Shown here piece by piece: positions 4,078-32,848 of a DNA stretch of 32,848 nt. Under the pieces are notes generated by a model. It was not told the origin of the DNA, ran no database searches, and was given only the letters and a program-made list of their open reading frames with translations. Positions within the stretch are counted from its first letter, which is position 1; the number at the start of each line of letters is the position of its first letter. The position numbers and the translations under genes are program-made. The DNA comes from Peduovirus P24A7b, in the sequence record NC_049390.1; one strand, 5' to 3'.

Positions 4078-5151
4078 ATGCGCCAGGAAACCCGCTTTAA
4101 ATTTAATGCCTATCTGTCCCGTGTTGCCGAACTGAACGGCATCGACGCCGGTGATGTGTCGAAAAAATTCACCGTTGAACCGTCGGTCACCCAGACCCTG
4201 ATGAACACCATGCAGGAGTCCTCTGATTTTCTGACCCGCATCAACATTGTGCCGGTCAGCGAAATGAAAGGGGAAAAAATTGGTATTGGTGTCACCGGCT
4301 CCATCGCCAGCACCACCGACACCGCCGGTGGCACCGAGCGTCAGCCGAAGGACTTCTCGAAGCTGGCGTCAAACAAGTACGAATGCGACCAGATTAACTT
4401 CGATTTTTATATCCGCTACAAAACGCTGGACCTGTGGGCGCGTTATCAGGATTTCCAGCTCCGTGTCCGTAACGCCATTATCAAACGCCAGTCCCTTGAT
4501 TTAATCATGGCCGGTTTTAACGGCGTGAGGCGTGCCGAAACCTCTGACCGCAGCAGCAATCCGATGCTGCAGGATGTGGCGGTCGGCTGGCTGCAGAAAT
4601 ACCGCAATGAAGCCCCGGCGCGCGTGATGAGCAAGGTCACTGACGAGGAAGGGCACACCACCTCTGAGGTTATCCGCGTGGGTAAGGGCGGTGATTATGT
4701 AAGCCTCGACGCACTGGTGATGGATGCGACCAACAACCTGATTGAACCGTGGTATCAGGAAGACCCTGACCTTGTGGTGATTGTGGGGCGTCAGCTACTG
4801 GCGGACAAGTATTTCCCCATCGTTAACAAGGAGCAGGACAACAGCGAAATGCTGGCCGCTGACGTCATCATCAGCCAGAAACGCATCGGTAACCTGCCAG
4901 CGGTACGCGTCCCGTACTTCCCGGCGGATGCGATGCTCATCACGAAGCTGGAAAACCTGTCCATCTACTACATGGATGACAGCCATCGCCGCGTGATTGT
5001 GGAAAACCCGAAACTCGACCGCGTGGAGAACTACGAGTCAATGAACATTGATTACGTGGTGGAAGACTACGCCGCCGGTTGTCTGGTGGAAAAAATCAAG
5101 GTCGGTGATTTCTCCACACCGGCTAAGGCGACTGCAGAGCCGGGAGCGTAA
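4078..5151 (+). CDS. N: Major capsid protein
   Basis: 357 aa, MRQETRFKFNAYLSRVAELNG...; matches P2 gpN in sequence, length and position. Confidence 0.95.
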   Translation: MRQETRFKFNAYLSRVAELNGIDAGDVSKKFTVEPSVTQTLMNTMQESSDFLTRINIVPVSEMKGEKIGIGVTGSIASTTDTAGGTERQPKDFSKLASNKYECDQINFDFYIRYKTLDLWARYQDFQLRVRNAIIKRQSLDLIMAGFNGVRRAETSDRSSNPMLQDVAVGWLQKYRNEAPARVMSKVTDEEGHTTSEVIRVGKGGDYVSLDALVMDATNNLIEPWYQEDPDLVVIVGRQLLADKYFPIVNKEQDNSEMLAADVIISQKRIGNLPAVRVPYFPADAMLITKLENLSIYYMDDSHRRVIVENPKLDRVENYESMNIDYVVEDYAAGCLVEKIKVGDFSTPAKATAEPGA

Positions 5152-5154
5152 CCG

Positions 5155-5898
5155 ATGACGAGTCCCGCACAGCGCCACATGATGCGGGTCTCGGCAGCGA
5201 TGACCGCGCAGCGGGAAGCCGCCCCGCTGCGACATGCAACTGTCTATGAGCAGATGCTGGTCAAGCTGGCCGCAGACCAGCGCACACTGAAAGCGATTTA
5301 TTCAAAAGAGCTTAAGGCCGCGAAAAAGCGCGAACTGCTGCCGTTCTGGTTGCCGTGGGTGAACGGTGTGCTGGAGCAGGGCAAAGGTGCACAGGATGAC
5401 ATTCTGATGACGGTCATGCTGTGGCGTCTGGATACCGGCGATATTGCCGGTGCGCTGGAGATTGCCCGTTATGCCCTGAAGTACGGTCTGACCATGCCGG
5501 GTAAACACCGCCGCACCCCGCCGTACATGTTCACCGAGGAGGTCGCACTCGCGGCCATGCGCGCTCACGCTGCCGGTGAATCTGTGGATATCCGCCTGCT
5601 GACGGAGACCCTTGAACTGACCGCCACGGCTGACATGCCTGATGAAGTGCGCGCAAAGCTGCACAAAATCACCGGTCTGTTTCTGCGTGACGCTGGTGAT
5701 GCCGCAGGGGCGCTGGCGCACCTGCAACGCGCGACACTGCTCGACTGTCAGGCAGGCGTCAAAAAAGAGATTGAACGACTGGAGCGGGAGCTGAAACCGA
5801 AGCCGGAGCCGCAGCCCAAAGCGGCCACCCGTACCCCGCGTAAGACCCGGAGCGTGACACCGGCAAAACGTGGACGCCCGAAAAAGAAAGCCAGTTAA
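5155..5898 (+). CDS. M: Terminase small (endonuclease) subunit
   Basis: 247 aa with basic K/R/P-rich C-terminus; matches P2 gpM length and position. Confidence 0.92.
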   Translation: MTSPAQRHMMRVSAAMTAQREAAPLRHATVYEQMLVKLAADQRTLKAIYSKELKAAKKRELLPFWLPWVNGVLEQGKGAQDDILMTVMLWRLDTGDIAGALEIARYALKYGLTMPGKHRRTPPYMFTEEVALAAMRAHAAGESVDIRLLTETLELTATADMPDEVRAKLHKITGLFLRDAGDAAGALAHLQRATLLDCQAGVKKEIERLERELKPKPEPQPKAATRTPRKTRSVTPAKRGRPKKKAS

Positions 5899-27907: not shown

Positions 27908-30182
27908 AGCCTCAGGGCGTTTTGTCCCTCCGTCAGCATTTGCTGCAGGCACCGGTAAGGCGTTTACTGGTGCTTATGCATGGAACGCGCCACGCGAGGC
28001 TGTCGGGCGCGAAAGACCTCTTACACGTGACGAGATGCGTCAGGTGCAAGGTGTTTTATCCACGATTAACCGCCTGCCTTACTTTTTGCGCTCGCTGTTT
28101 ACTTCACGCTATGACTACATCCGGCGCAATAAAAGCCCGGTGCACGGGTTTTATTTCCTCACATCCACTTTTCAGCGTCGTTTATGGCCGCGCATTGAGC
28201 GTGTGAATCAGCGCCATGAAATGAACACCGACGCGTCGTTGCTGTTTCTGGCAGAGCGTGACCACTATGCGCGCCTGCCGGGAATGAATGACAAGGAGCT
28301 GAAAAAGTTTGCTGCCCGTATCTCATCGCAGCTTTTCATGATGTATGAGGAACTCAGCGATGCCTGGGTGGATGCGCATGGCGAAAAAGAATCGCTGTTT
28401 ACGGATGAGGCGCAGGCTCACCTCTATGGTCATGTTGCTGGCGCTGCACGTGCTTTCAATATTTCCCCGCTCTACTGGAAAAAATACCGTAAAGGGCAGA
28501 TGACCACGAGGCAGGCATATTCTGCCATTGCCCGCCTGTTTAACGATGAGTGGTGGACTCATCAGCTTAAAGGCCAGCGTATGCGCTGGCATGAGGCGTT
28601 ACTGATTGCTGTCGGGGAGGTGAATAAAGACCGTTCTCCTTATGCCAGTAAACATGCCATTCGTGATGTGCGTGCACGCCGCCAGGCAAATCTGGAATTT
28701 CTTAAATCGTGTGACCTTGAAAACAGGGAAACCGGCGAGCGCATCGACCTTATCAGTAAGGTGATGGGCAGTATTTCTAATCCTGAAATTCGCCGGATGG
28801 AGCTGATGAACACCATTGCCGGTATTGAGCGTTACGCCGCCGCAGAGGGTGATGTGGGGATGTTTATCACGCTGACCACGCCGTCAAAGTATCACCCGAC
28901 ACGTCAGGTCGGAAAAGGCGAAAGTAAAACCGTCCAGCTTAATCACGGCTGGAATGATGAGGCATTTAATCCAAAGGATGCGCAGCGTTATCTCTGCCGT
29001 ATCTGGAGCCTGATGCGCACGGCATTCAAGGATAATGATTTACAGGCCTACGGTTTGCGTGTTGTTGAACCACACCACGACGGAACGCCGCACTGGCATA
29101 TGATGCTTTTTTGTAATCCACGCCAGCGTAACCAGATTATTGAAATCATGCGTCGCTATGCGCTCAAAGAGGATGGCGACGAAAGAGGAGCCGCGCGAAA
29201 CCGTTTTCAGGCAAAACACCTTAACCGGGGCGGTGCTGCGGGATATATCGCGAAATACATCTCAAAAAACATCGACGGCTATGCACTGGATGGTCAGCTC
29301 GATAATGATACCGGTAGGCCGCTGAAAGACACAGCTGCTGCTGTTACCGCATGGGCGTCAACGTGGCGCATTCCGCAATTTAAAACGGTTGGTCTGCCGA
29401 CAATGGGGGCTTACCGTGAACTACGCAAATTGCCTCGCGGCGTCAGCATTGCTGATGAGTTTGACGAGCGCGTCGAGGCTGCACGCGCCGCTGCAGACAG
29501 TGGTGATTTTGCGTTGTATATCAGCGCGCAGGGCGGGGCAAATGTCCCGCGCGATTGCCAGACTGTCAGGGTCGCCCGTAGCCCGTCGGATGACGTTAAC
29601 GAGTACGAGGAAGAAGTCGAGAGAGTGGTCGGCATTTACGCGCCGCATCTCGGCGCGCGTCATATTCATATCACCAGAACGACGGACTGGCGCATTGTTC
29701 CGAAAGTGCCGGTCGTTGAGCCTTTGACTTTAAAAAGCGGCATCGCCGCGCCTCGGAGTCCTGTCAATAACTGTGGAAAGCTCACCGGTGGTGATACTTC
29801 GTTACCGGCTCCCACACCTTCTGAGCACGCCGCAGCCGTGCTTAATCTGGTTGATGACGGAGTTATTGAATGGAATGAACCGGAGGTCGTGAGGGCGCTC
29901 AGGGGCGCATTAAAACACGACCTGCGAACGCCAAACCGTCAGCAGAGAAACGGAAGCCCGTTAAAACTACATGAAATTGCACCATCGGCCAGACTGACCC
30001 GGTCGGAAAGAATGCAAATTACCCGTATCCGCGTTGACCTTGCTCAGAACTGTATCAGGCCGCAGCGATGGGAGTTTGAGGCGCTGGCGCGTGGCGCGAC
30101 CGTAAATTATGACGGAAAAAAATTCACGTATCCGGTCGCTGATGAGTGGCCGGGATTCTCAACAGTAATGGAGTGGAAATGA
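27897..30182 (+). CDS. A: Rolling-circle replication initiator A
   Basis: Trimmed to ATG at 27897 (MAVKASGRFVPPSAFAAGTGK...), 761 aa as for P2 gpA; contains the twin-tyrosine motif GYIAKYISK (about 29244-29270). Confidence 0.95.
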   Translation: MAVKASGRFVPPSAFAAGTGKAFTGAYAWNAPREAVGRERPLTRDEMRQVQGVLSTINRLPYFLRSLFTSRYDYIRRNKSPVHGFYFLTSTFQRRLWPRIERVNQRHEMNTDASLLFLAERDHYARLPGMNDKELKKFAARISSQLFMMYEELSDAWVDAHGEKESLFTDEAQAHLYGHVAGAARAFNISPLYWKKYRKGQMTTRQAYSAIARLFNDEWWTHQLKGQRMRWHEALLIAVGEVNKDRSPYASKHAIRDVRARRQANLEFLKSCDLENRETGERIDLISKVMGSISNPEIRRMELMNTIAGIERYAAAEGDVGMFITLTTPSKYHPTRQVGKGESKTVQLNHGWNDEAFNPKDAQRYLCRIWSLMRTAFKDNDLQAYGLRVVEPHHDGTPHWHMMLFCNPRQRNQIIEIMRRYALKEDGDERGAARNRFQAKHLNRGGAAGYIAKYISKNIDGYALDGQLDNDTGRPLKDTAAAVTAWASTWRIPQFKTVGLPTMGAYRELRKLPRGVSIADEFDERVEAARAAADSGDFALYISAQGGANVPRDCQTVRVARSPSDDVNEYEEEVERVVGIYAPHLGARHIHITRTTDWRIVPKVPVVEPLTLKSGIAAPRSPVNNCGKLTGGDTSLPAPTPSEHAAAVLNLVDDGVIEWNEPEVVRALRGALKHDLRTPNRQQRNGSPLKLHEIAPSARLTRSERMQITRIRVDLAQNCIRPQRWEFEALARGATVNYDGKKFTYPVADEWPGFSTVMEWK

Positions 30183-30634
30183 TGGCAAAAATTCACGAGG
30201 TAAAGCTGCACGCCAAATATTTTGACCTTGTGCTGGAAGGAAAGAAACGCGCAGAGTTTCGGAAAAATGACCGTAATTATGAGCGCGGGGACACGTTGAT
30301 TTTGCATGAATGGGTACAGGGTGTGTATACGGGGCGAAAGGTTGAAGCCCGGATAACAGATGTTACTGACCTGTCAGACTGGCTGGAAGATTATGTCTTG
30401 CTAAGTATTGAGCTGCTTAATACAGGCGCATATGAGATTGTGAACTGGAAAGAACTTAGTGAGCGTGGTCTGGTATTCAGAATTAATCATGAAATTATGC
30501 ATCAGCTCGGCCTTTCTGTTATGTATGAACCAGAGACGGGGATGTCTGGCGGGGCAATGGTTGCCACGGATGGAGCATGGAACTATTCAGATGAACAGAT
30601 GGAGCGTGCACAGCAAAACGGGTGGCTTGGATAA
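30179..30634 (+). CDS. ASCH/DUF3850-like domain protein with a C-terminal extension (about 151 aa)
   Basis: N-terminal about 75 aa (MAKIHEVKLHAKYFDLVLEGKKRAEFRKNDRNYERGDTLILHEW...) carries the ASCH-type G-x-K-x-x-E-x-R motif; start overlaps the A stop (ATGATG, start at 30179 or 30182). Confidence 0.7.
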   Translation: MMAKIHEVKLHAKYFDLVLEGKKRAEFRKNDRNYERGDTLILHEWVQGVYTGRKVEARITDVTDLSDWLEDYVLLSIELLNTGAYEIVNWKELSERGLVFRINHEIMHQLGLSVMYEPETGMSGGAMVATDGAWNYSDEQMERAQQNGWLG

Positions 30635-30840
30635 TGCACAGAATACCAGGCGAGATACCGCAACATAAAACTAAAAATATCAAGCTGATGGCTATTGTTC
30701 ACCGTCTACAGCAGATTATGGTTAACGAAAATCTGACGCCTGACGAGCTGGTCGGGTGTGCCGAAATAGTCCGGGATAATTACGGGCGGTTTAACCATAT
30801 CGGTCAATCCAGAGTTATGCCACCACCACGCAGACGATAG
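30634..30840 (+). CDS. Small hypothetical protein (68 aa), translationally coupled to the ASCH-like gene
   Basis: TAATG stop/start overlap at 30632-30636; basic Pro/Arg-rich C-terminus. Confidence 0.45.
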   Translation: MHRIPGEIPQHKTKNIKLMAIVHRLQQIMVNENLTPDELVGCAEIVRDNYGRFNHIGQSRVMPPPRRR

Positions 30841-30964
30841 AGAACGCCGCCAGTCGTGAAACTTGTTTTCAGGGCTGGCGGGGTTGAACAACGAGCGAAG
30901 CGAGGCGTTAGTTGACAGTAATATTTTTACTGCGTTGGTGCTGGTTTTTGACGGTTGAAAGGAG

Positions 30965-30981
30965 TTAGCTCGGAGAGCTAA
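30965..30981. promoter_or_regulatory. Palindrome TTAGCTC-gga-GAGCTAA upstream of cargo gene 31070
   Basis: Perfect 7-bp inverted repeat about 90 bp upstream of the ATG at 31070; a GCTAACA direct repeat at 30983 and 31023. Confidence 0.3.
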
Positions 30982-31069
30982 AGCTAACAACTTACAAATA
31001 TTCAAAAGTAAGCTTCCTGTTGCTAACATAAGGTCGATTTTTTATGTGGATGATGCAAAAAGGATAGCT

Positions 31070-31801
31070 ATGGATACTGTAATCGCTTTTCTATCACTCG
31101 CTTTTTTCGTTGCTTTTTTCATCGGGTTAATCAAACCATCACTGGTGCGGATGCCAAACCGTAAACGTGCAAGTGCGGTTTATCTCGGAGGAGGTTTTGT
31201 ATTGAGCATAATTGGTTCAATACTCTATCCAACAGAAAAAAGCCAGCCAGTTGCTAAAACTGAAACATCAACCGTTGCAGAACACCAAGTCCAAAAAACA
31301 TTCGAATATGGTGGAAAAACACTCAAGGAATATCGGAACGAGCCAAAGAAAACTCGACACGATATTGTAAATAGTTACATTGATTTTAAGGAAGTGCCAG
31401 TCACCGCATCAGATGCATTTTATGCCTGCATGAGTGAATATACTTTTACCAAAGATGATGAGTTGAAACTCGGTGATGTTCTTGGATGGTGCTTTAATGA
31501 TTATGAAAAAGATCCGCAATCACTAAACAATAAAATCAACCTTGATACATTTCAGAGTAATTTTAGTGGTTGGGATGGTTCTTATCGACCATTGGAAAAG
31601 TTAATTAAAGAGAATATGAACGATGATTCATCTTATAAACATGTGTCAACAGTGTATCATTTAATCCTGAATAAAGACCCTCACGCCATTGTGAAAACCA
31701 CATTTCGCGGTACTAATGCCTATGGTGGTGTCGTGAAGCAAACAATAGCAGCGCGTGTTAATGTGAAAACGGGTGAAATAGTTTCGATACTAAATAATTG
31801 A
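31070..31801 (+). CDS. Hotspot cargo: two-TM membrane-anchored protein with about 190-aa soluble domain, function unknown
   Basis: Trimmed from the GTG at 31046 to the ATG at 31070 (AAGGA Shine-Dalgarno); hydrophobic helices at aa 3-22 and 36-52; AT-rich; at the A-to-cos position (tin/old in P2). Confidence 0.75.
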   Translation: MDTVIAFLSLAFFVAFFIGLIKPSLVRMPNRKRASAVYLGGGFVLSIIGSILYPTEKSQPVAKTETSTVAEHQVQKTFEYGGKTLKEYRNEPKKTRHDIVNSYIDFKEVPVTASDAFYACMSEYTFTKDDELKLGDVLGWCFNDYEKDPQSLNNKINLDTFQSNFSGWDGSYRPLEKLIKENMNDDSSYKHVSTVYHLILNKDPHAIVKTTFRGTNAYGGVVKQTIAARVNVKTGEIVSILNN

Positions 31802-31806
31802 TGGTG

Positions 31807-31846
31807 ATGCCACCGATACTGAAGTTTGATATTGTGTCGGTGGCAT
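31807..31846 (+). terminator. Stem-loop downstream of gene 31070..31801
   Basis: Perfect 10-bp inverted repeat ATGCCACCGA / TCGGTGGCAT with a 20-nt loop starting 6 nt after the stop; T-rich runs follow further downstream. Confidence 0.4.
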
Positions 31847-32007
31847 TGAAAGATGATCTTAAAGCATGTCTATTTTTTTGTTTTACATGATTTTTTTTTT
31901 TGATGTGTTGTGCGTTGTTTTGTTTGTAATTAGAGTGCTTGATGATTTAAATTTCGTTTAAATGTTGTGTGAAAATATTGTGATTTTCTATATCAAGGAT
32001 TTGTTTC

Positions 32008-32706
32008 ATGAAGTATTGTGGGATAGCTTTAATAATATGTCTTTGCTTGTTTATGTTCGCATTTGGTTTTGTGTTGGGTGGAGTTCAATGGGCATGGGGC
32101 GAGAGTGAAAATAATAGCAAGGTCGCATTTTGGACAATGCTAGGAGGGTGGGTGTCAGGATTGGCTACTCTCGCGGCTGTGGGGGTTTCATTATTTACAA
32201 GTTATTATGCGATGATTTCAGGCAAAGAGAAAGTTGACGTTGTTTTTGCGCCTATATATACGACCTCTACGGCAAAAAAAGCAGATAAGCTTTCATTGCA
32301 AGATTTGGCTAATATCAAAGTGACAAATTTACACGGTGTGAAGTGTACTATTGTTAATGTTTATATGAAGTTTAGTGATGTTAAGGAACCATTAAAGATT
32401 AATAACCTTAAACAGGGAGGTAAGCCAATACCTTATACGCTATGTAATATAAGCGATATGTGGGAGTTTGCATTTGGGATGGAGTCAAACCCTAGATTGA
32501 GATTTCTATTGTCAGGGTTGAAATATGAAGGTCGACCATCCTTTAAAAAAGGGCATTTCATCATTGAAACAGCAATGAAACAATACAAGTTAAAGATGCG
32601 GAAAGACTTTCTCTCAATATTACAGAGTGAGTATCAAAGCATAGAGGAAGAATCTAAACGTAACTCAGTTAAATCAGGGTGGTCACGGTATAAAAAACTG
32701 AATTAA
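32008..32706 (+). CDS. Hotspot cargo: two-TM membrane-anchored protein with about 165-aa soluble domain, function unknown
   Basis: ATG at 32008 with AAGGA Shine-Dalgarno; hydrophobic helices at aa 5-25 and 40-64; very AT-rich; last gene before the cos end. Confidence 0.75.
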   Translation: MKYCGIALIICLCLFMFAFGFVLGGVQWAWGESENNSKVAFWTMLGGWVSGLATLAAVGVSLFTSYYAMISGKEKVDVVFAPIYTTSTAKKADKLSLQDLANIKVTNLHGVKCTIVNVYMKFSDVKEPLKINNLKQGGKPIPYTLCNISDMWEFAFGMESNPRLRFLLSGLKYEGRPSFKKGHFIIETAMKQYKLKMRKDFLSILQSEYQSIEEESKRNSVKSGWSRYKKLN

Positions 32707-32722
32707 TTACCTAATCAGTTAT

Positions 32723-32743
32723 CATGCATACACAATATGCATG
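32723..32743. repeat. Inverted repeat CATGCATA-cacaa-TATGCATG within a cluster of ATGCA motifs near the right genome end
   Basis: Perfect 8-bp arms; further TGCATG/ATGCA copies at 32749-32756 and 32811-32825. Confidence 0.3.
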
Positions 32744-32848
32744 GATTTGCATGCGCAAGCAGCATTCACATTGGTTGTTTTAGTTCAGGACTGGTGCTGT
32801 TTCGACGTGTTCATGCAACTGCATTAAAACCGACCCATGAAGCGGGCG

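What the first reader, a model, noticed from the sequence alone, without database searches (positions are those of the whole stretch)
30841..31846. tin/old-position cargo gene 1: two-TM membrane protein with its own palindromic upstream element
After replication gene A, where P2 carries tin and old, this genome has an AT-rich gene (31070..31801) with two N-terminal TM helices and an about 190-aa soluble domain without recognisable motifs. It has its own upstream region containing the perfect palindrome TTAGCTC-gga-GAGCTAA (30965-30981), a possible repressor or activator site, and is followed by a 10-bp-stem hairpin (31807-31846). It is an independent transcription unit acquired horizontally and a candidate exclusion or defence protein.
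Basis: partly seen in the sequence, partly recalled or inferred. Interest (0 to 1): 0.72.

Follow-up and report, generated by a model that had tools for sequence, protein, structure and literature searches.

The report
Phage 186 Orf97 homologue in P2
The gene is a P2-type copy of coliphage 186 orf97, a membrane-anchored, periplasm-facing protein whose 186 version is recorded as blocking phage infection, so it is a named but mechanistically unstudied exclusion candidate, not a new kind of gene.

Summary
The gene is not an orphan. It is the full-length orthologue of coliphage 186 orf97 (79% aa identity, PHROG 3403). The 186 GenBank record annotates that gene as "expression from plasmid blocks 186 infection". 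In 186-type phages orf97 is the distal gene of the LexA-controlled tum-orf97 SOS operon. Here it sits in a P2-type backbone with no tum and no LexA box.

Topology is well supported. There are two TM helices with a +5 cytoplasmic loop and a flexible linker. The well-modelled periplasmic domain carries a co-varying Cys pair. It belongs to a large extracytoplasmic domain family that Pfam and NCBIfam lack and for which no solved structure was found.

The palindrome is at chance level (P about 0.11). It is absent or imperfect in sister alleles and depends partly on a 6-bp duplication. The downstream hairpin has no U-tract. It is probably a decayed second copy of a 75-nt hairpin element that marks the left edge of the P2/186 variable region.

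The exclusion reading is supported by homology. The regulatory-site and independent-transcription-unit readings are not. Mechanism and expression here remain unknown. Interest is modest.

The parts
30841..30915 (+). 75-nt conserved hairpin element, upstream copy. A 17-bp interrupted stem (AAC.GCCGCCAGTC.TGAAA / TTTCA.GGCTGGCGG.GTT) plus the tail GTTGAACAACGAG..GAGGCGTTAG. It is the landmark at the left edge of the P2/186 variable region.
   Evidence: Matches P2-like phages such as Wphi and Yersinia phages at 93-99%. Covariance model R1 scores it 98 bits. 6 of 17 pairs show compensatory changes. No Rfam family matches.
30916..31069 (+). Leader of the P2-type orf97 allele.
   Evidence: Sequence. 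Allele alignment. Only 31020-31064 is detectably homologous to 186, local score 26 against shuffles of 16.2 +/- 2.3. The promoter scan finds nothing at 9 of 12 or better here. Divergence of the leader equals that of the 5' half of the gene, so there is no extra constraint.
30965..30981 (.). Perfect palindrome TTAGCTC-gga-GAGCTAA. Judged incidental.
   Evidence: Present. Shuffle P(>=1) = 0.11. Absent or imperfect in 6 of 9 E. coli sister loci; the right arm overlaps a 6-bp tandem duplication AGCTAA-AGCTAA.
31070..31801 (+). orf97 orthologue, 243 aa. Layout: TM1 residues ~2-21 (31073-31132); cytoplasmic loop 22-35 (net +5); TM2 ~34-53 (31169-31228); disordered linker ~54-78; helical subdomain ~79-160 with Cys120/Cys141; C-terminal alpha+beta module ~161-243 (31550-31798; motif NFSGWDGSYRPLEKLIK..MNDDSSYKHV.T..FRGTNAYGG).
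   Evidence: 79% aa identity over 243/243 residues to 186 Orf97. PHROG 3403 at E 2.7e-145. AlphaFold pLDDT is 83 overall and mostly above 90 in the soluble domain. dN/dS is 0.08-0.11. Cys-pair covariation and membrane anchors across the family.
31804..31877 (+). Probable decayed second copy of the 75-nt element.
   Evidence: R1 gives 20.2 bits, E about 0.0015, full-length alignment. It is the best hit in the 32.8-kb window after the true copy and its reverse complement. Strong second copies sit at the same position after orf97 in L002/L004, L006, L008, 186, Klebsiella and Serratia. Fold z = -5.3.

Best explanation
The gene is the P2-type allele of coliphage 186 orf97.

Product. It is an inner-membrane protein held by an N-terminal hairpin of two TM helices. 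The short N-terminus faces out and the basic loop faces the cytoplasm. A flexible linker of about 25 residues tethers a disulfide-stapled globular domain of about 165 residues in the periplasm.

Most likely function. It acts alone as a superinfection-exclusion protein. I infer that the periplasmic domain interferes with an envelope step of infection by P2/186-type phages. The likeliest step is genome delivery across the periplasm and inner membrane, after adsorption. It could do this by binding the incoming tail-tip or ejection machinery, or a host component that the machinery needs.

Timing. In relatives the gene is switched on when the phage commits to lytic growth: the LexA-controlled tum-orf97 operon in 186 types, or directly behind A in the early operon of Serratia, Yersinia and Rahnella P2 types. 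That suggests exclusion from cells already producing phage.

This window. The SOS control is gone. Expression would come from read-through of the early operon across the upstream hairpin element, from a weak extended -10 promoter (31001-31029), or from both.

Shown versus inferred. Shown: orthology, purifying selection, architecture, and the genomic and regulatory contexts in relatives. Taken from a database annotation, not from a paper I could read: the 186 exclusion phenotype. Inferred: periplasmic site of action, the step blocked, timing, and the promoter.
For: Orthology:
- tblastn gives 79% identity over 243/243 aa, E 1e-120, to 186 orf97. The RAST label 'Orf97' on the P22H4 copy agrees.
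- PHROG 3403 matches full length.

Phenotype:
- The NC_001317 feature note for orf97 reads 'expression from plasmid blocks 186 infection'. The same record annotates p95, a LexA site, tum, t95a and t95b around it.

Topology:
- Hydropathy segments 1-19 and 34-52; loop charge +5 against -1 on each flank.
- AlphaFold helices 2-21 and 31-52, disordered 57-72, soluble domain pLDDT mostly above 90.
- Of 97 family representatives with residues at both Cys columns, 72 have both Cys, 23 have neither and 2 have one.
- 132 of 149 representatives carry TM anchors, a Zn-ribbon plus TM, or lipoprotein signal peptides such as P0128 and P0133.

Functional constraint:
- dN/dS is 0.08-0.18.

Acts alone:
- 186 and several other phages have no gene between orf97 and cos/Q.
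- Downstream partners in E. coli are unrelated to one another in about half of the arrangements.

Regulatory context in relatives:
- Nine species-level loci have a LexA box (CTGT-N8-ACAG; CTGTATGTTTATACAG or a close variant) 537-559 nt upstream, then tum or a tum-like ORF, then orf97.
- Serratia, Y. rohdei and Rahnella have a P2-type A followed directly by orf97.
Against: - The exclusion phenotype rests on one GenBank note for a 79%-identical protein. The primary paper (I recall Brumby et al. 1996, Virology 219:105) is not in the library, so neither the assay nor the step blocked could be checked.
- Plasmid over-expression of a membrane protein can block infection non-specifically.
- There is no similarity to any known exclusion family. 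PHROG hits are all 'unknown function', PADLOC gives none, and Foldseek against the PDB gives nothing better than E 0.07.
- Most members of the wider domain family are ordinary bacterial lipoproteins or membrane proteins. The domain's basic activity may therefore have nothing to do with phages.
- Expression in this P2-type context is unknown. There is no LexA box and no consensus promoter.
Confidence: 0.55

Rival explanations
1. The protein serves the phage's own lytic cycle or the host envelope. It might tune lysis timing, peptidoglycan or envelope stress through its periplasmic domain. On this view the reported block of 186 infection is a side effect of over-expression, and the gene is an accessory envelope factor rather than a defence or exclusion gene.
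For: - In relatives it is co-expressed with entry into lytic growth, in the SOS operon or behind A. That is also when lysis-related functions are needed.
- The C-terminal module occurs in about 3,000 protein clusters (representatives at 50% identity), many of them plain bacterial lipoproteins or TM proteins with no phage context visible.
- The gene is far more conserved (52-100% across Enterobacterales, constant length) than typical hotspot defence cargo.
- In 186-type phages it lies on the backbone side of the boundary element.
Against: - The only recorded phenotype is a block of infection.
- It is dispensable: most P2-like phages lack it. The window-type allele is in 84 and the 186-type in about 5 of 5,426 complete E. 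coli genomes.
- There is no similarity to holins, antiholins, spanins or lysis regulators in PHROGs or Pfam.
Confidence: 0.2
2. It is an abortive-infection or membrane-toxin effector. The two TM helices depolarise or permeabilise the inner membrane when triggered, killing or arresting the infected cell.
For: - Small TM proteins are common effectors in hotspot defence systems, as discussed for P4/P2 hotspots in Rousset et al. 2022.
- The gene sits in the P2 defence hotspot.
Against: - Most of the conserved sequence, with high AlphaFold confidence, is a folded periplasmic domain with a disulfide, not the TM part.
- Homologues replace the TM hairpin with a lipoprotein signal or a single anchor, so the helices look like a tether.
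- The phage expresses it during its own induction or early phase in relatives. That would be self-defeating for a suicide effector.
- There are no PADLOC matches.
Confidence: 0.1
3. Gene 1 and the downstream 2-TM gene (32008-32706, PHROG 16957) form an obligate two-gene membrane system.
For: - A member of the same downstream family follows orf97 in the window, L002/L004, L006 and L010, and in 6 of 19 P2-type IMG/VR loci.
- Both genes are AT-rich and on the same strand.
Against: - 186 and other phages have orf97 with no partner, and the 186 phenotype was obtained with orf97.
- In other E. coli loci the next gene is unrelated: a 198-aa protein plus an FRG protein, or proteins of 224, 260 or 429 aa.
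- The partners share only 27-39% identity while orf97 stays 92-97% identical at the DNA level. Sequence divergence also rises sharply in the last 180 nt of orf97. Both fit a recombination boundary, not a co-evolving pair.
Confidence: 0.08
4. The palindrome at 30965-30981 is an operator or activator site that gives the gene its own regulated promoter.
For: - It is a perfect 7+7 palindrome with a 3-nt spacer.
- It would be centred near -63 relative to the candidate extended -10 promoter. That is a position used by class I activators (inference from the sequence).
Against: - It is at chance level, P = 0.11.
- It is not conserved: four alleles lack 6 bp of it and differ at two arm positions, and two alleles carry a mismatch, while their genes are intact and under selection.
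- Homologues in other genera have unrelated upstream sequence.
- It matches no LexA box.
Confidence: 0.05

Closest known systems
Coliphage 186 Orf97 (NP_052294.1; second gene of the p95 tum-orf97 SOS operon); PHROG 3403
   Same: - 79% aa identity over the full 243 residues.
- Same 2-TM plus periplasmic-domain architecture.
- Same place between replication gene A and cos/Q.
- Followed by the same 75-nt hairpin element, here decayed.
- The last ~45 nt of the leader (t95a loop to Shine-Dalgarno) are still alignable.
   Different: - No tum, no p95 promoter and no LexA box; the t95a terminator stem is degraded.
- The gene is embedded in a P2-type backbone behind DUF3850/ASCH, a 72-aa ORF and a resident copy of the element.
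- GC is lower (0.378 against 0.462).
- A variable cargo gene follows it, whereas in 186 the element, t95b and cos follow directly.
Membrane-anchored superinfection-exclusion proteins that block DNA entry (HK97 gp15, P22 SieA, T4 Imm, lactococcal Sie2009, TP-J34 Ltp). This comparison is from general knowledge and the reviews seen.
   Same: - A small phage-encoded protein tethered to the cytoplasmic membrane with its functional part outside the cytoplasm.
- Acts without partners.
- Encoded in an accessory region.
- The homologue's phenotype is a block of infection.
   Different: - No detectable sequence or fold relationship.
- The step blocked is unknown.
- In relatives it is controlled by SOS or the early lytic operon rather than expressed constitutively from the prophage.
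P2 tin and old (the cargo at the same position in P2)
   Same: - Same hotspot between A and Q/cos.
- AT-rich accessory cargo.
- Phage-exclusion role.
   Different: - No homology. Old is a cytoplasmic ATPase/TOPRIM nuclease and Tin a soluble protein acting on T-even replication (general knowledge).
- Here there are no Pfam or PADLOC matches, and the protein is a membrane protein facing the periplasm.

Membership tests
186 Orf97 family (PHROG 3403) | Full-length sequence similarity to 186 Orf97 and the PHROG 3403 profile | tested here: met
   tblastn gives 79% identity, 243/243 aa, E 1e-120. hmmscan against phrog_3403 gives E 2.7e-145 over profile positions 1-243/243.
186 Orf97 family (PHROG 3403) | Architecture: N-terminal 2-TM hairpin, linker, conserved domain of about 165 aa, total about 243 aa | tested here: met
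   48-sequence alignment with near-constant length and 30 invariant columns. AlphaFold model. Hydropathy.
186 Orf97 family (PHROG 3403) | Position between replication gene A and cos/portal gene Q of a P2/186-family phage | tested here: met
   Window ORFs. RefSeq annotation of the near-identical (99.9% DNA identity) locus in E. coli AR_0081. Same position in Serratia, Klebsiella and 186.
186 Orf97 family (PHROG 3403) | Membership of the LexA-controlled SOS operon (p95, tum, t95a upstream) | tested here: not met
   There is no tum homologue and no LexA box near the gene in the window. This is a feature of the 186-type context rather than of the protein family. Serratia, Yersinia and Rahnella P2-type copies lack it too.
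186 Orf97 family (PHROG 3403) | Expression blocks phage infection | not testable with these tools
   Known only from the GenBank note on 186 orf97. It needs plating assays with the window allele.
P2 Old / Tin exclusion proteins | Sequence similarity to Old (ATPase + TOPRIM) or Tin | tested here: not met
   No Pfam domains at E <= 1. No PADLOC model, a library of known and candidate defence proteins, at E <= 1.
Known superinfection-exclusion families (Imm, Sp, SieA, gp15, Cor, Llp) | Sequence or fold similarity to a characterised Sie protein | tested here: not met
Known superinfection-exclusion families (Imm, Sp, SieA, gp15, Cor, Llp) | Envelope location with the functional part outside the cytoplasm | tested here: met
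   Positive-inside rule, both-or-neither Cys pair, and lipoprotein- or TM-anchored homologues. This is a prediction, not an experiment.
Intrinsic (Rho-independent) terminator, for the 31807-31846 hairpin | GC-rich stem with a short loop, followed immediately by a U-tract | tested here: not met
   The stem is present, but the loop is 14 nt and the tail reads TGAAAGATGA. The terminator scan does not list it. Sister loci L005 and L009 have true stem-plus-T-run terminators at this position.
Transcription-factor operator, for the 30965-30981 palindrome | Conservation across alleles and occurrence beyond chance | tested here: not met
   P = 0.11 by shuffling. Absent or imperfect in 6 of 9 sister loci.

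The most novel reading that the evidence does not exclude
The C-terminal module of about 85 residues has the motif WDGS[YH]..LE..IK..MND..SY.H..T, then FRG.NA.GG. With its helical partner it defines a large, uncatalogued extracytoplasmic domain family. The profile search found 2,958 representatives (one per 50%-identity cluster). The family is absent from Pfam and NCBIfam, and no solved structure was found. On the novel reading, the phage-borne members are a new and widespread class of entry-blocking exclusion proteins. They would be switched on at the onset of lytic growth, under SOS or early-operon control, to protect a producing cell from superinfection. They would recognise the tail-tip or ejection apparatus of P2/186-type phages.
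Probability: 0.25. Interest if true: 0.6.

Novelty: new member of a known kind. Interest (0 to 1): 0.35.

Why it matters
The finding links an unannotated 'hypothetical protein' to a named phage 186 gene with a recorded exclusion phenotype. That protein sits in the P2 defence hotspot of about 1.5% of complete E. coli genomes and in many other Enterobacterales. The link gives it a testable topology and a testable mode of action.

Orf97 was not mentioned in the superinfection-exclusion review I checked. It is absent from PADLOC, the only defence-system library searched. Its periplasmic domain belongs to a large family with no Pfam entry and no solved structure found. A modest amount of bench work could therefore add a new exclusion family and give a first function to that domain.

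The work also shows that the palindrome is incidental and the hairpin is not a terminator. It describes a conserved 75-nt hairpin landmark at the edge of the P2/186 variable region.

Tried and rejected
1. Domain libraries. Pfam, NCBIfam and PADLOC scans of gene 1 gave nothing. Scans of distant family members also gave no domain name, apart from a faint PepSY hint at E 0.059 that I do not rely on.

3. LexA control in the window. No box lies near the gene.

4. Selection on the leader. The 156-nt leader diverges less than synonymous sites. This was rejected as evidence of constraint. Divergence is equally low in the 5' half of the gene and concentrated in the last 180 nt, so it is a recombination gradient.

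5. The right arm of the palindrome as a relic of the tum 3' end. This was suggested by a MAFFT alignment. Only 31020-31064 is significantly similar to 186, so it stays speculation.

6. The 75-nt element as a general, integron-like repeat bracketing cassettes. This was rejected. About 66 IMG/VR loci have one strong copy. Only four have two, always about 973 nt apart around orf97.

7. An Rfam family for the element. None was found.

8. Literature. Odegrip et al. 2006 is not held by the library, and full-text searches did not find Brumby et al. 1996. Rousset et al. 2022 lists the protein only as 'hypothetical' in Table S5A. Only part 1 of 4 of their Table S2 (tested systems) was read, and the gene was not in it.
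Full report
**Setting**

The window ends in ...GCAACTGCATTAAAACCGACCCATGAAGCGGGCG. This matches the right end of the phage 186 record, so the window looks like a complete P2-family genome cut at cos. A locus with 99.9% DNA identity lies in E. coli AR_0081. RefSeq annotates it as Cox..., replication endonuclease (A), DUF3850 protein, small hypothetical, hypothetical (gene 1), hypothetical (gene 2), then portal and terminase on the other strand. The finding therefore lies in the A-to-Q/cos variable region. Rousset et al. 2022 describe this region as a hotspot with 1,650 gene arrangements in E. coli.

**Checking the observation**

- The ORF runs 31070-31801 (243 aa) with an AGGA Shine-Dalgarno five bases upstream.
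- GC is 0.378 against 0.509 for the window.
- Hydropathy gives two TM segments (1-19, 34-52). AlphaFold gives helices 2-21 and 31-52.
- The palindrome TTAGCTC-gga-GAGCTAA is at 30965-30981. The inverted repeat ATGCCACCGATAC/GTGTCGGTGGCAT is at 31807-31846.
- The hairpin region folds far better than shuffles, z = -5.3.
- The palindrome is not unusual. 11% of shuffles of the 229-nt upstream region contain a perfect 7-nt inverted repeat with a spacer of 10 nt or less. Four such repeats occur within 1.5 kb.

**Identity of the gene**

Pfam, NCBIfam and PADLOC give nothing. PHROG 3403 (unknown function) matches end to end at E = 2.7e-145. The copy in Peduovirus P22H4 is labelled 'Orf97'. A paper on Salmonella prophage BTP5 pointed to the tum-orf97 SOS operon of coliphage 186. 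tblastn then showed 79% identity over all 243 residues to 186 orf97, E 1e-120.

The 186 RefSeq record annotates, in order:
- promoter p95 with a LexA site;
- tum;
- the partial terminator t95a;
- terminator t95b.

This note is the only functional evidence I could reach. I recall the primary paper as Brumby et al. 1996. Full-text searches did not find it, and an id look-up for Odegrip et al. 2006 showed it is not held. Rousset et al. list this protein (WP_048266360) and its alleles only as 'hypothetical' inside 'DUF3850/ASCH + hypothetical...' loci. Only part 1 of 4 of their table of tested systems was read, and the gene does not appear there.

**Distribution and selection**

- More than 150 close homologues (52-100% identity, almost all 239-249 aa) occur across Enterobacterales.
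- The window-type allele is in 84 of 5,426 complete E. coli genomes, always chromosomal. The 186-type allele is in about five.
- dN/dS is 0.08-0.18.

A species-level scan plus context look-ups show two settings.
- Type I (186, Klebsiella, Kluyvera, Citrobacter, Erwinia, Enterobacter, Chimaeribacter, Scandinavium): a 186-type A, a LexA box (CTGT-N8-ACAG; CTGTATGTTTATACAG or a close variant) 537-559 nt upstream, tum or a tum-like ORF, then orf97.
- Type II (Serratia, Yersinia rohdei, Rahnella): a P2-type A followed directly by orf97. In E. coli, including the window, the order is A, DUF3850/ASCH, a small ORF, a hairpin element, a leader, then orf97.

In most relatives, then, the gene is the distal member of an operon that fires on entry into lytic growth. 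It is not a self-contained unit.

**The protein**

The AlphaFold model has mean pLDDT 83, mostly above 90 in the soluble domain. It shows:
- the TM hairpin;
- a disordered linker (57-72);
- a helical subdomain (about 85-163);
- a helix plus four-stranded sheet (173-241).

The loop between the TM helices carries +5 net charge and both flanks carry -1. The loop should therefore be cytoplasmic and the large domain periplasmic.

A profile search of 1.84 billion representative proteins finds 2,958 relatives, 66 of them at E <= 1e-30. The C-terminal module recurs behind lipoprotein signal peptides, single TM anchors, Zn-ribbon plus TM, or bPH domains. Of 149 representatives, 132 have such an anchor.

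The invariant Cys120 and Cys141 sit seven residues from either end of a helix-loop-helix. Across the wider family they are present together in 72 representatives, absent together in 23, and present singly in only 2. That pattern is what a disulfide would give.

No solved structure or named domain matches.

**The upstream region**

The first 75 nt (30841-30915) are a conserved hairpin element. P2-like phages such as Wphi and Yersinia phages share it at 93-99%. It has 17 base pairs, six of them with compensatory changes, and no Rfam match.

The rest of the leader (30916-31069) is specific to the P2-type allele. Only 31020-31064 still aligns with 186, where that stretch covers the t95a loop, the T-run and the Shine-Dalgarno. 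The t95a stem is degraded here. The decayed sequence happens to read as an extended -10 (TG-C-TAACAT, 31021-31029) with a TTCAAA 17 nt upstream. This is only a candidate promoter, below the scan threshold.

The palindrome is not conserved. P22H4, L008, L009 and L010 read GTTAGGTTGGAG------AGCTAAC. They lack a 6-bp AGCTAA tandem duplication and differ at two arm positions. S164 and L004 have one mismatch. Other genera have unrelated sequence here. The leader's low divergence (0-0.055) merely equals that of the 5' half of the gene.

**The downstream hairpin**

Several sister loci carry a second clear copy of the 75-nt element at this position: L002/L004, L006, L008, 186, Klebsiella and Serratia. 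A covariance model of the element hits window 31804-31877 over its full length (20.2 bits, E about 0.0015). This is the best hit in the window after the true copy and its reverse complement. The stem changes are compensated: CCGCCAG/CTGGCGG becomes CCACCGA/TCGGTGG. No U-tract follows the stem. Loci L005 and L009 have ordinary stem-plus-T-run terminators there instead.

In IMG/VR, about 66 loci carry one strong copy of the element. Only four carry two, always about 973 nt apart around orf97.

My reading is as follows. The element is a single-copy landmark at the left edge of the variable region. In 186-type phages orf97 lies on the backbone side of it. The P2-type allele arose when orf97 was imported together with its own downstream copy. 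In the window that copy has decayed. This supports horizontal acquisition, but not a terminator role.

**Relation to the next gene**

Divergence between orf97 alleles jumps in the last 180 nt, to 10-21 mismatches per 61 nt against 0-4 earlier. The sequence downstream is different in nearly every locus. It is a PHROG 16957 2-TM protein in the window, L002/L004, L006 and L010, with only 27-39% identity among them. Elsewhere it is an unrelated protein of 198 aa (plus an FRG protein), 224 aa, 260 aa or 429 aa. 186 has nothing there. The two genes are therefore neighbours across a recombination boundary, not an obligate pair.

**Mechanism**

Best supported (about 0.55): a periplasm-facing, membrane-tethered exclusion protein that acts alone on an envelope step of P2/186-type infection, most likely genome delivery. 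In relatives it is expressed at the onset of lytic growth.

Rivals:
- an envelope or lysis helper whose exclusion effect is an over-expression artefact (0.2);
- an abortive membrane toxin (0.1);
- an obligate pair with gene 2 (0.08);
- palindrome-controlled regulation (0.05).

The grounds for each are given in their own sections of this report.

**Novelty and score**

The gene is a new member, in a new regulatory context, of a family named in the 186 genome annotation. The mechanism is unknown and the domain family is uncatalogued. That leaves some room for discovery, but a specialist would not be surprised by what is here. Interest is 0.35.

Noticed in passing
window 30841-30915 and 31804-31877; L021 (186) 4239-4313; L006 3745-3819; L016 6745-6819; L012 6724-6807: A 75-nt hairpin element is conserved at 93-99% across P2-like phages (Wphi, Yersinia) and is also present in 186. 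It has 17 bp, six pairs with compensatory changes, is palindromic enough to score on both strands, and has no Rfam match. It marks the left edge of the A-to-cos variable region. It is normally single-copy and is duplicated only around orf97. It is not annotated in the 186 record, and its function is unknown; a protein-binding site, an RNA structure or a recombination anchor are all possible.
   Followed up: partly
window 32008-32706 (+): The second cargo gene encodes 232 aa with two N-terminal TM helices (PHROG 16957, unknown function; no Pfam or PADLOC match). Members of the same family follow orf97 in several E. coli loci. They share only 27-39% identity there, although the adjacent orf97 is 92-97% identical at the DNA level. 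This is a fast-diverging hotspot cargo family worth its own look.
   Followed up: partly
window 31620-31801 (3' end of orf97): Mismatches to all other E. coli alleles are concentrated in the last ~180 nt of the gene: 10-21 per 61 nt against 0-4 in the 5' half. Recombination junctions that swap the downstream cargo therefore seem to fall inside the 3' end of orf97.
   Followed up: partly
window 30975-30986: A 6-bp tandem duplication AGCTAA-AGCTAA is present in the window, L005, L006, L011, S164 and L004. It is absent from P22H4, L008, L009 and L010.
   Followed up: yes
window 30146-30634 (+) and 30622-30840 (+): A DUF3850/ASCH plus DUF7415 protein (PHROG 1812) has its longest ORF, with a GTG start, beginning inside the 3' end of gene A. 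A 72-aa ORF (PHROG 11386) overlaps its end. This pair precedes the hairpin element in many P2-type phages, whatever cargo follows. In locus L025 an orf92-like copy appears downstream of orf97.
   Followed up: no
L013 (Photorhabdus) 5783-5798, 272 nt upstream of the orf97 homologue: A good LexA-like box (CTGGTTATATAACCAG) precedes an orf97 homologue. That homologue sits alone between chromosomal pgsA and the ogr/D end of a P2-like tail cluster. SOS control of orf97 may therefore persist without tum.
   Followed up: no
E. coli E92/E94 (hits H36, H37) and bR_120_Kylling (H38): IS5- and IS3-family transposases are inserted within the gene 1 / gene 2 region of otherwise near-identical loci.
   Followed up: no
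window 32700-32848: The window ends at the same position as the right end of the 186 record (...GCAACTGCATTAAAACCGACCCA...). It therefore appears to be a whole phage genome linearised at cos.
   Followed up: partly
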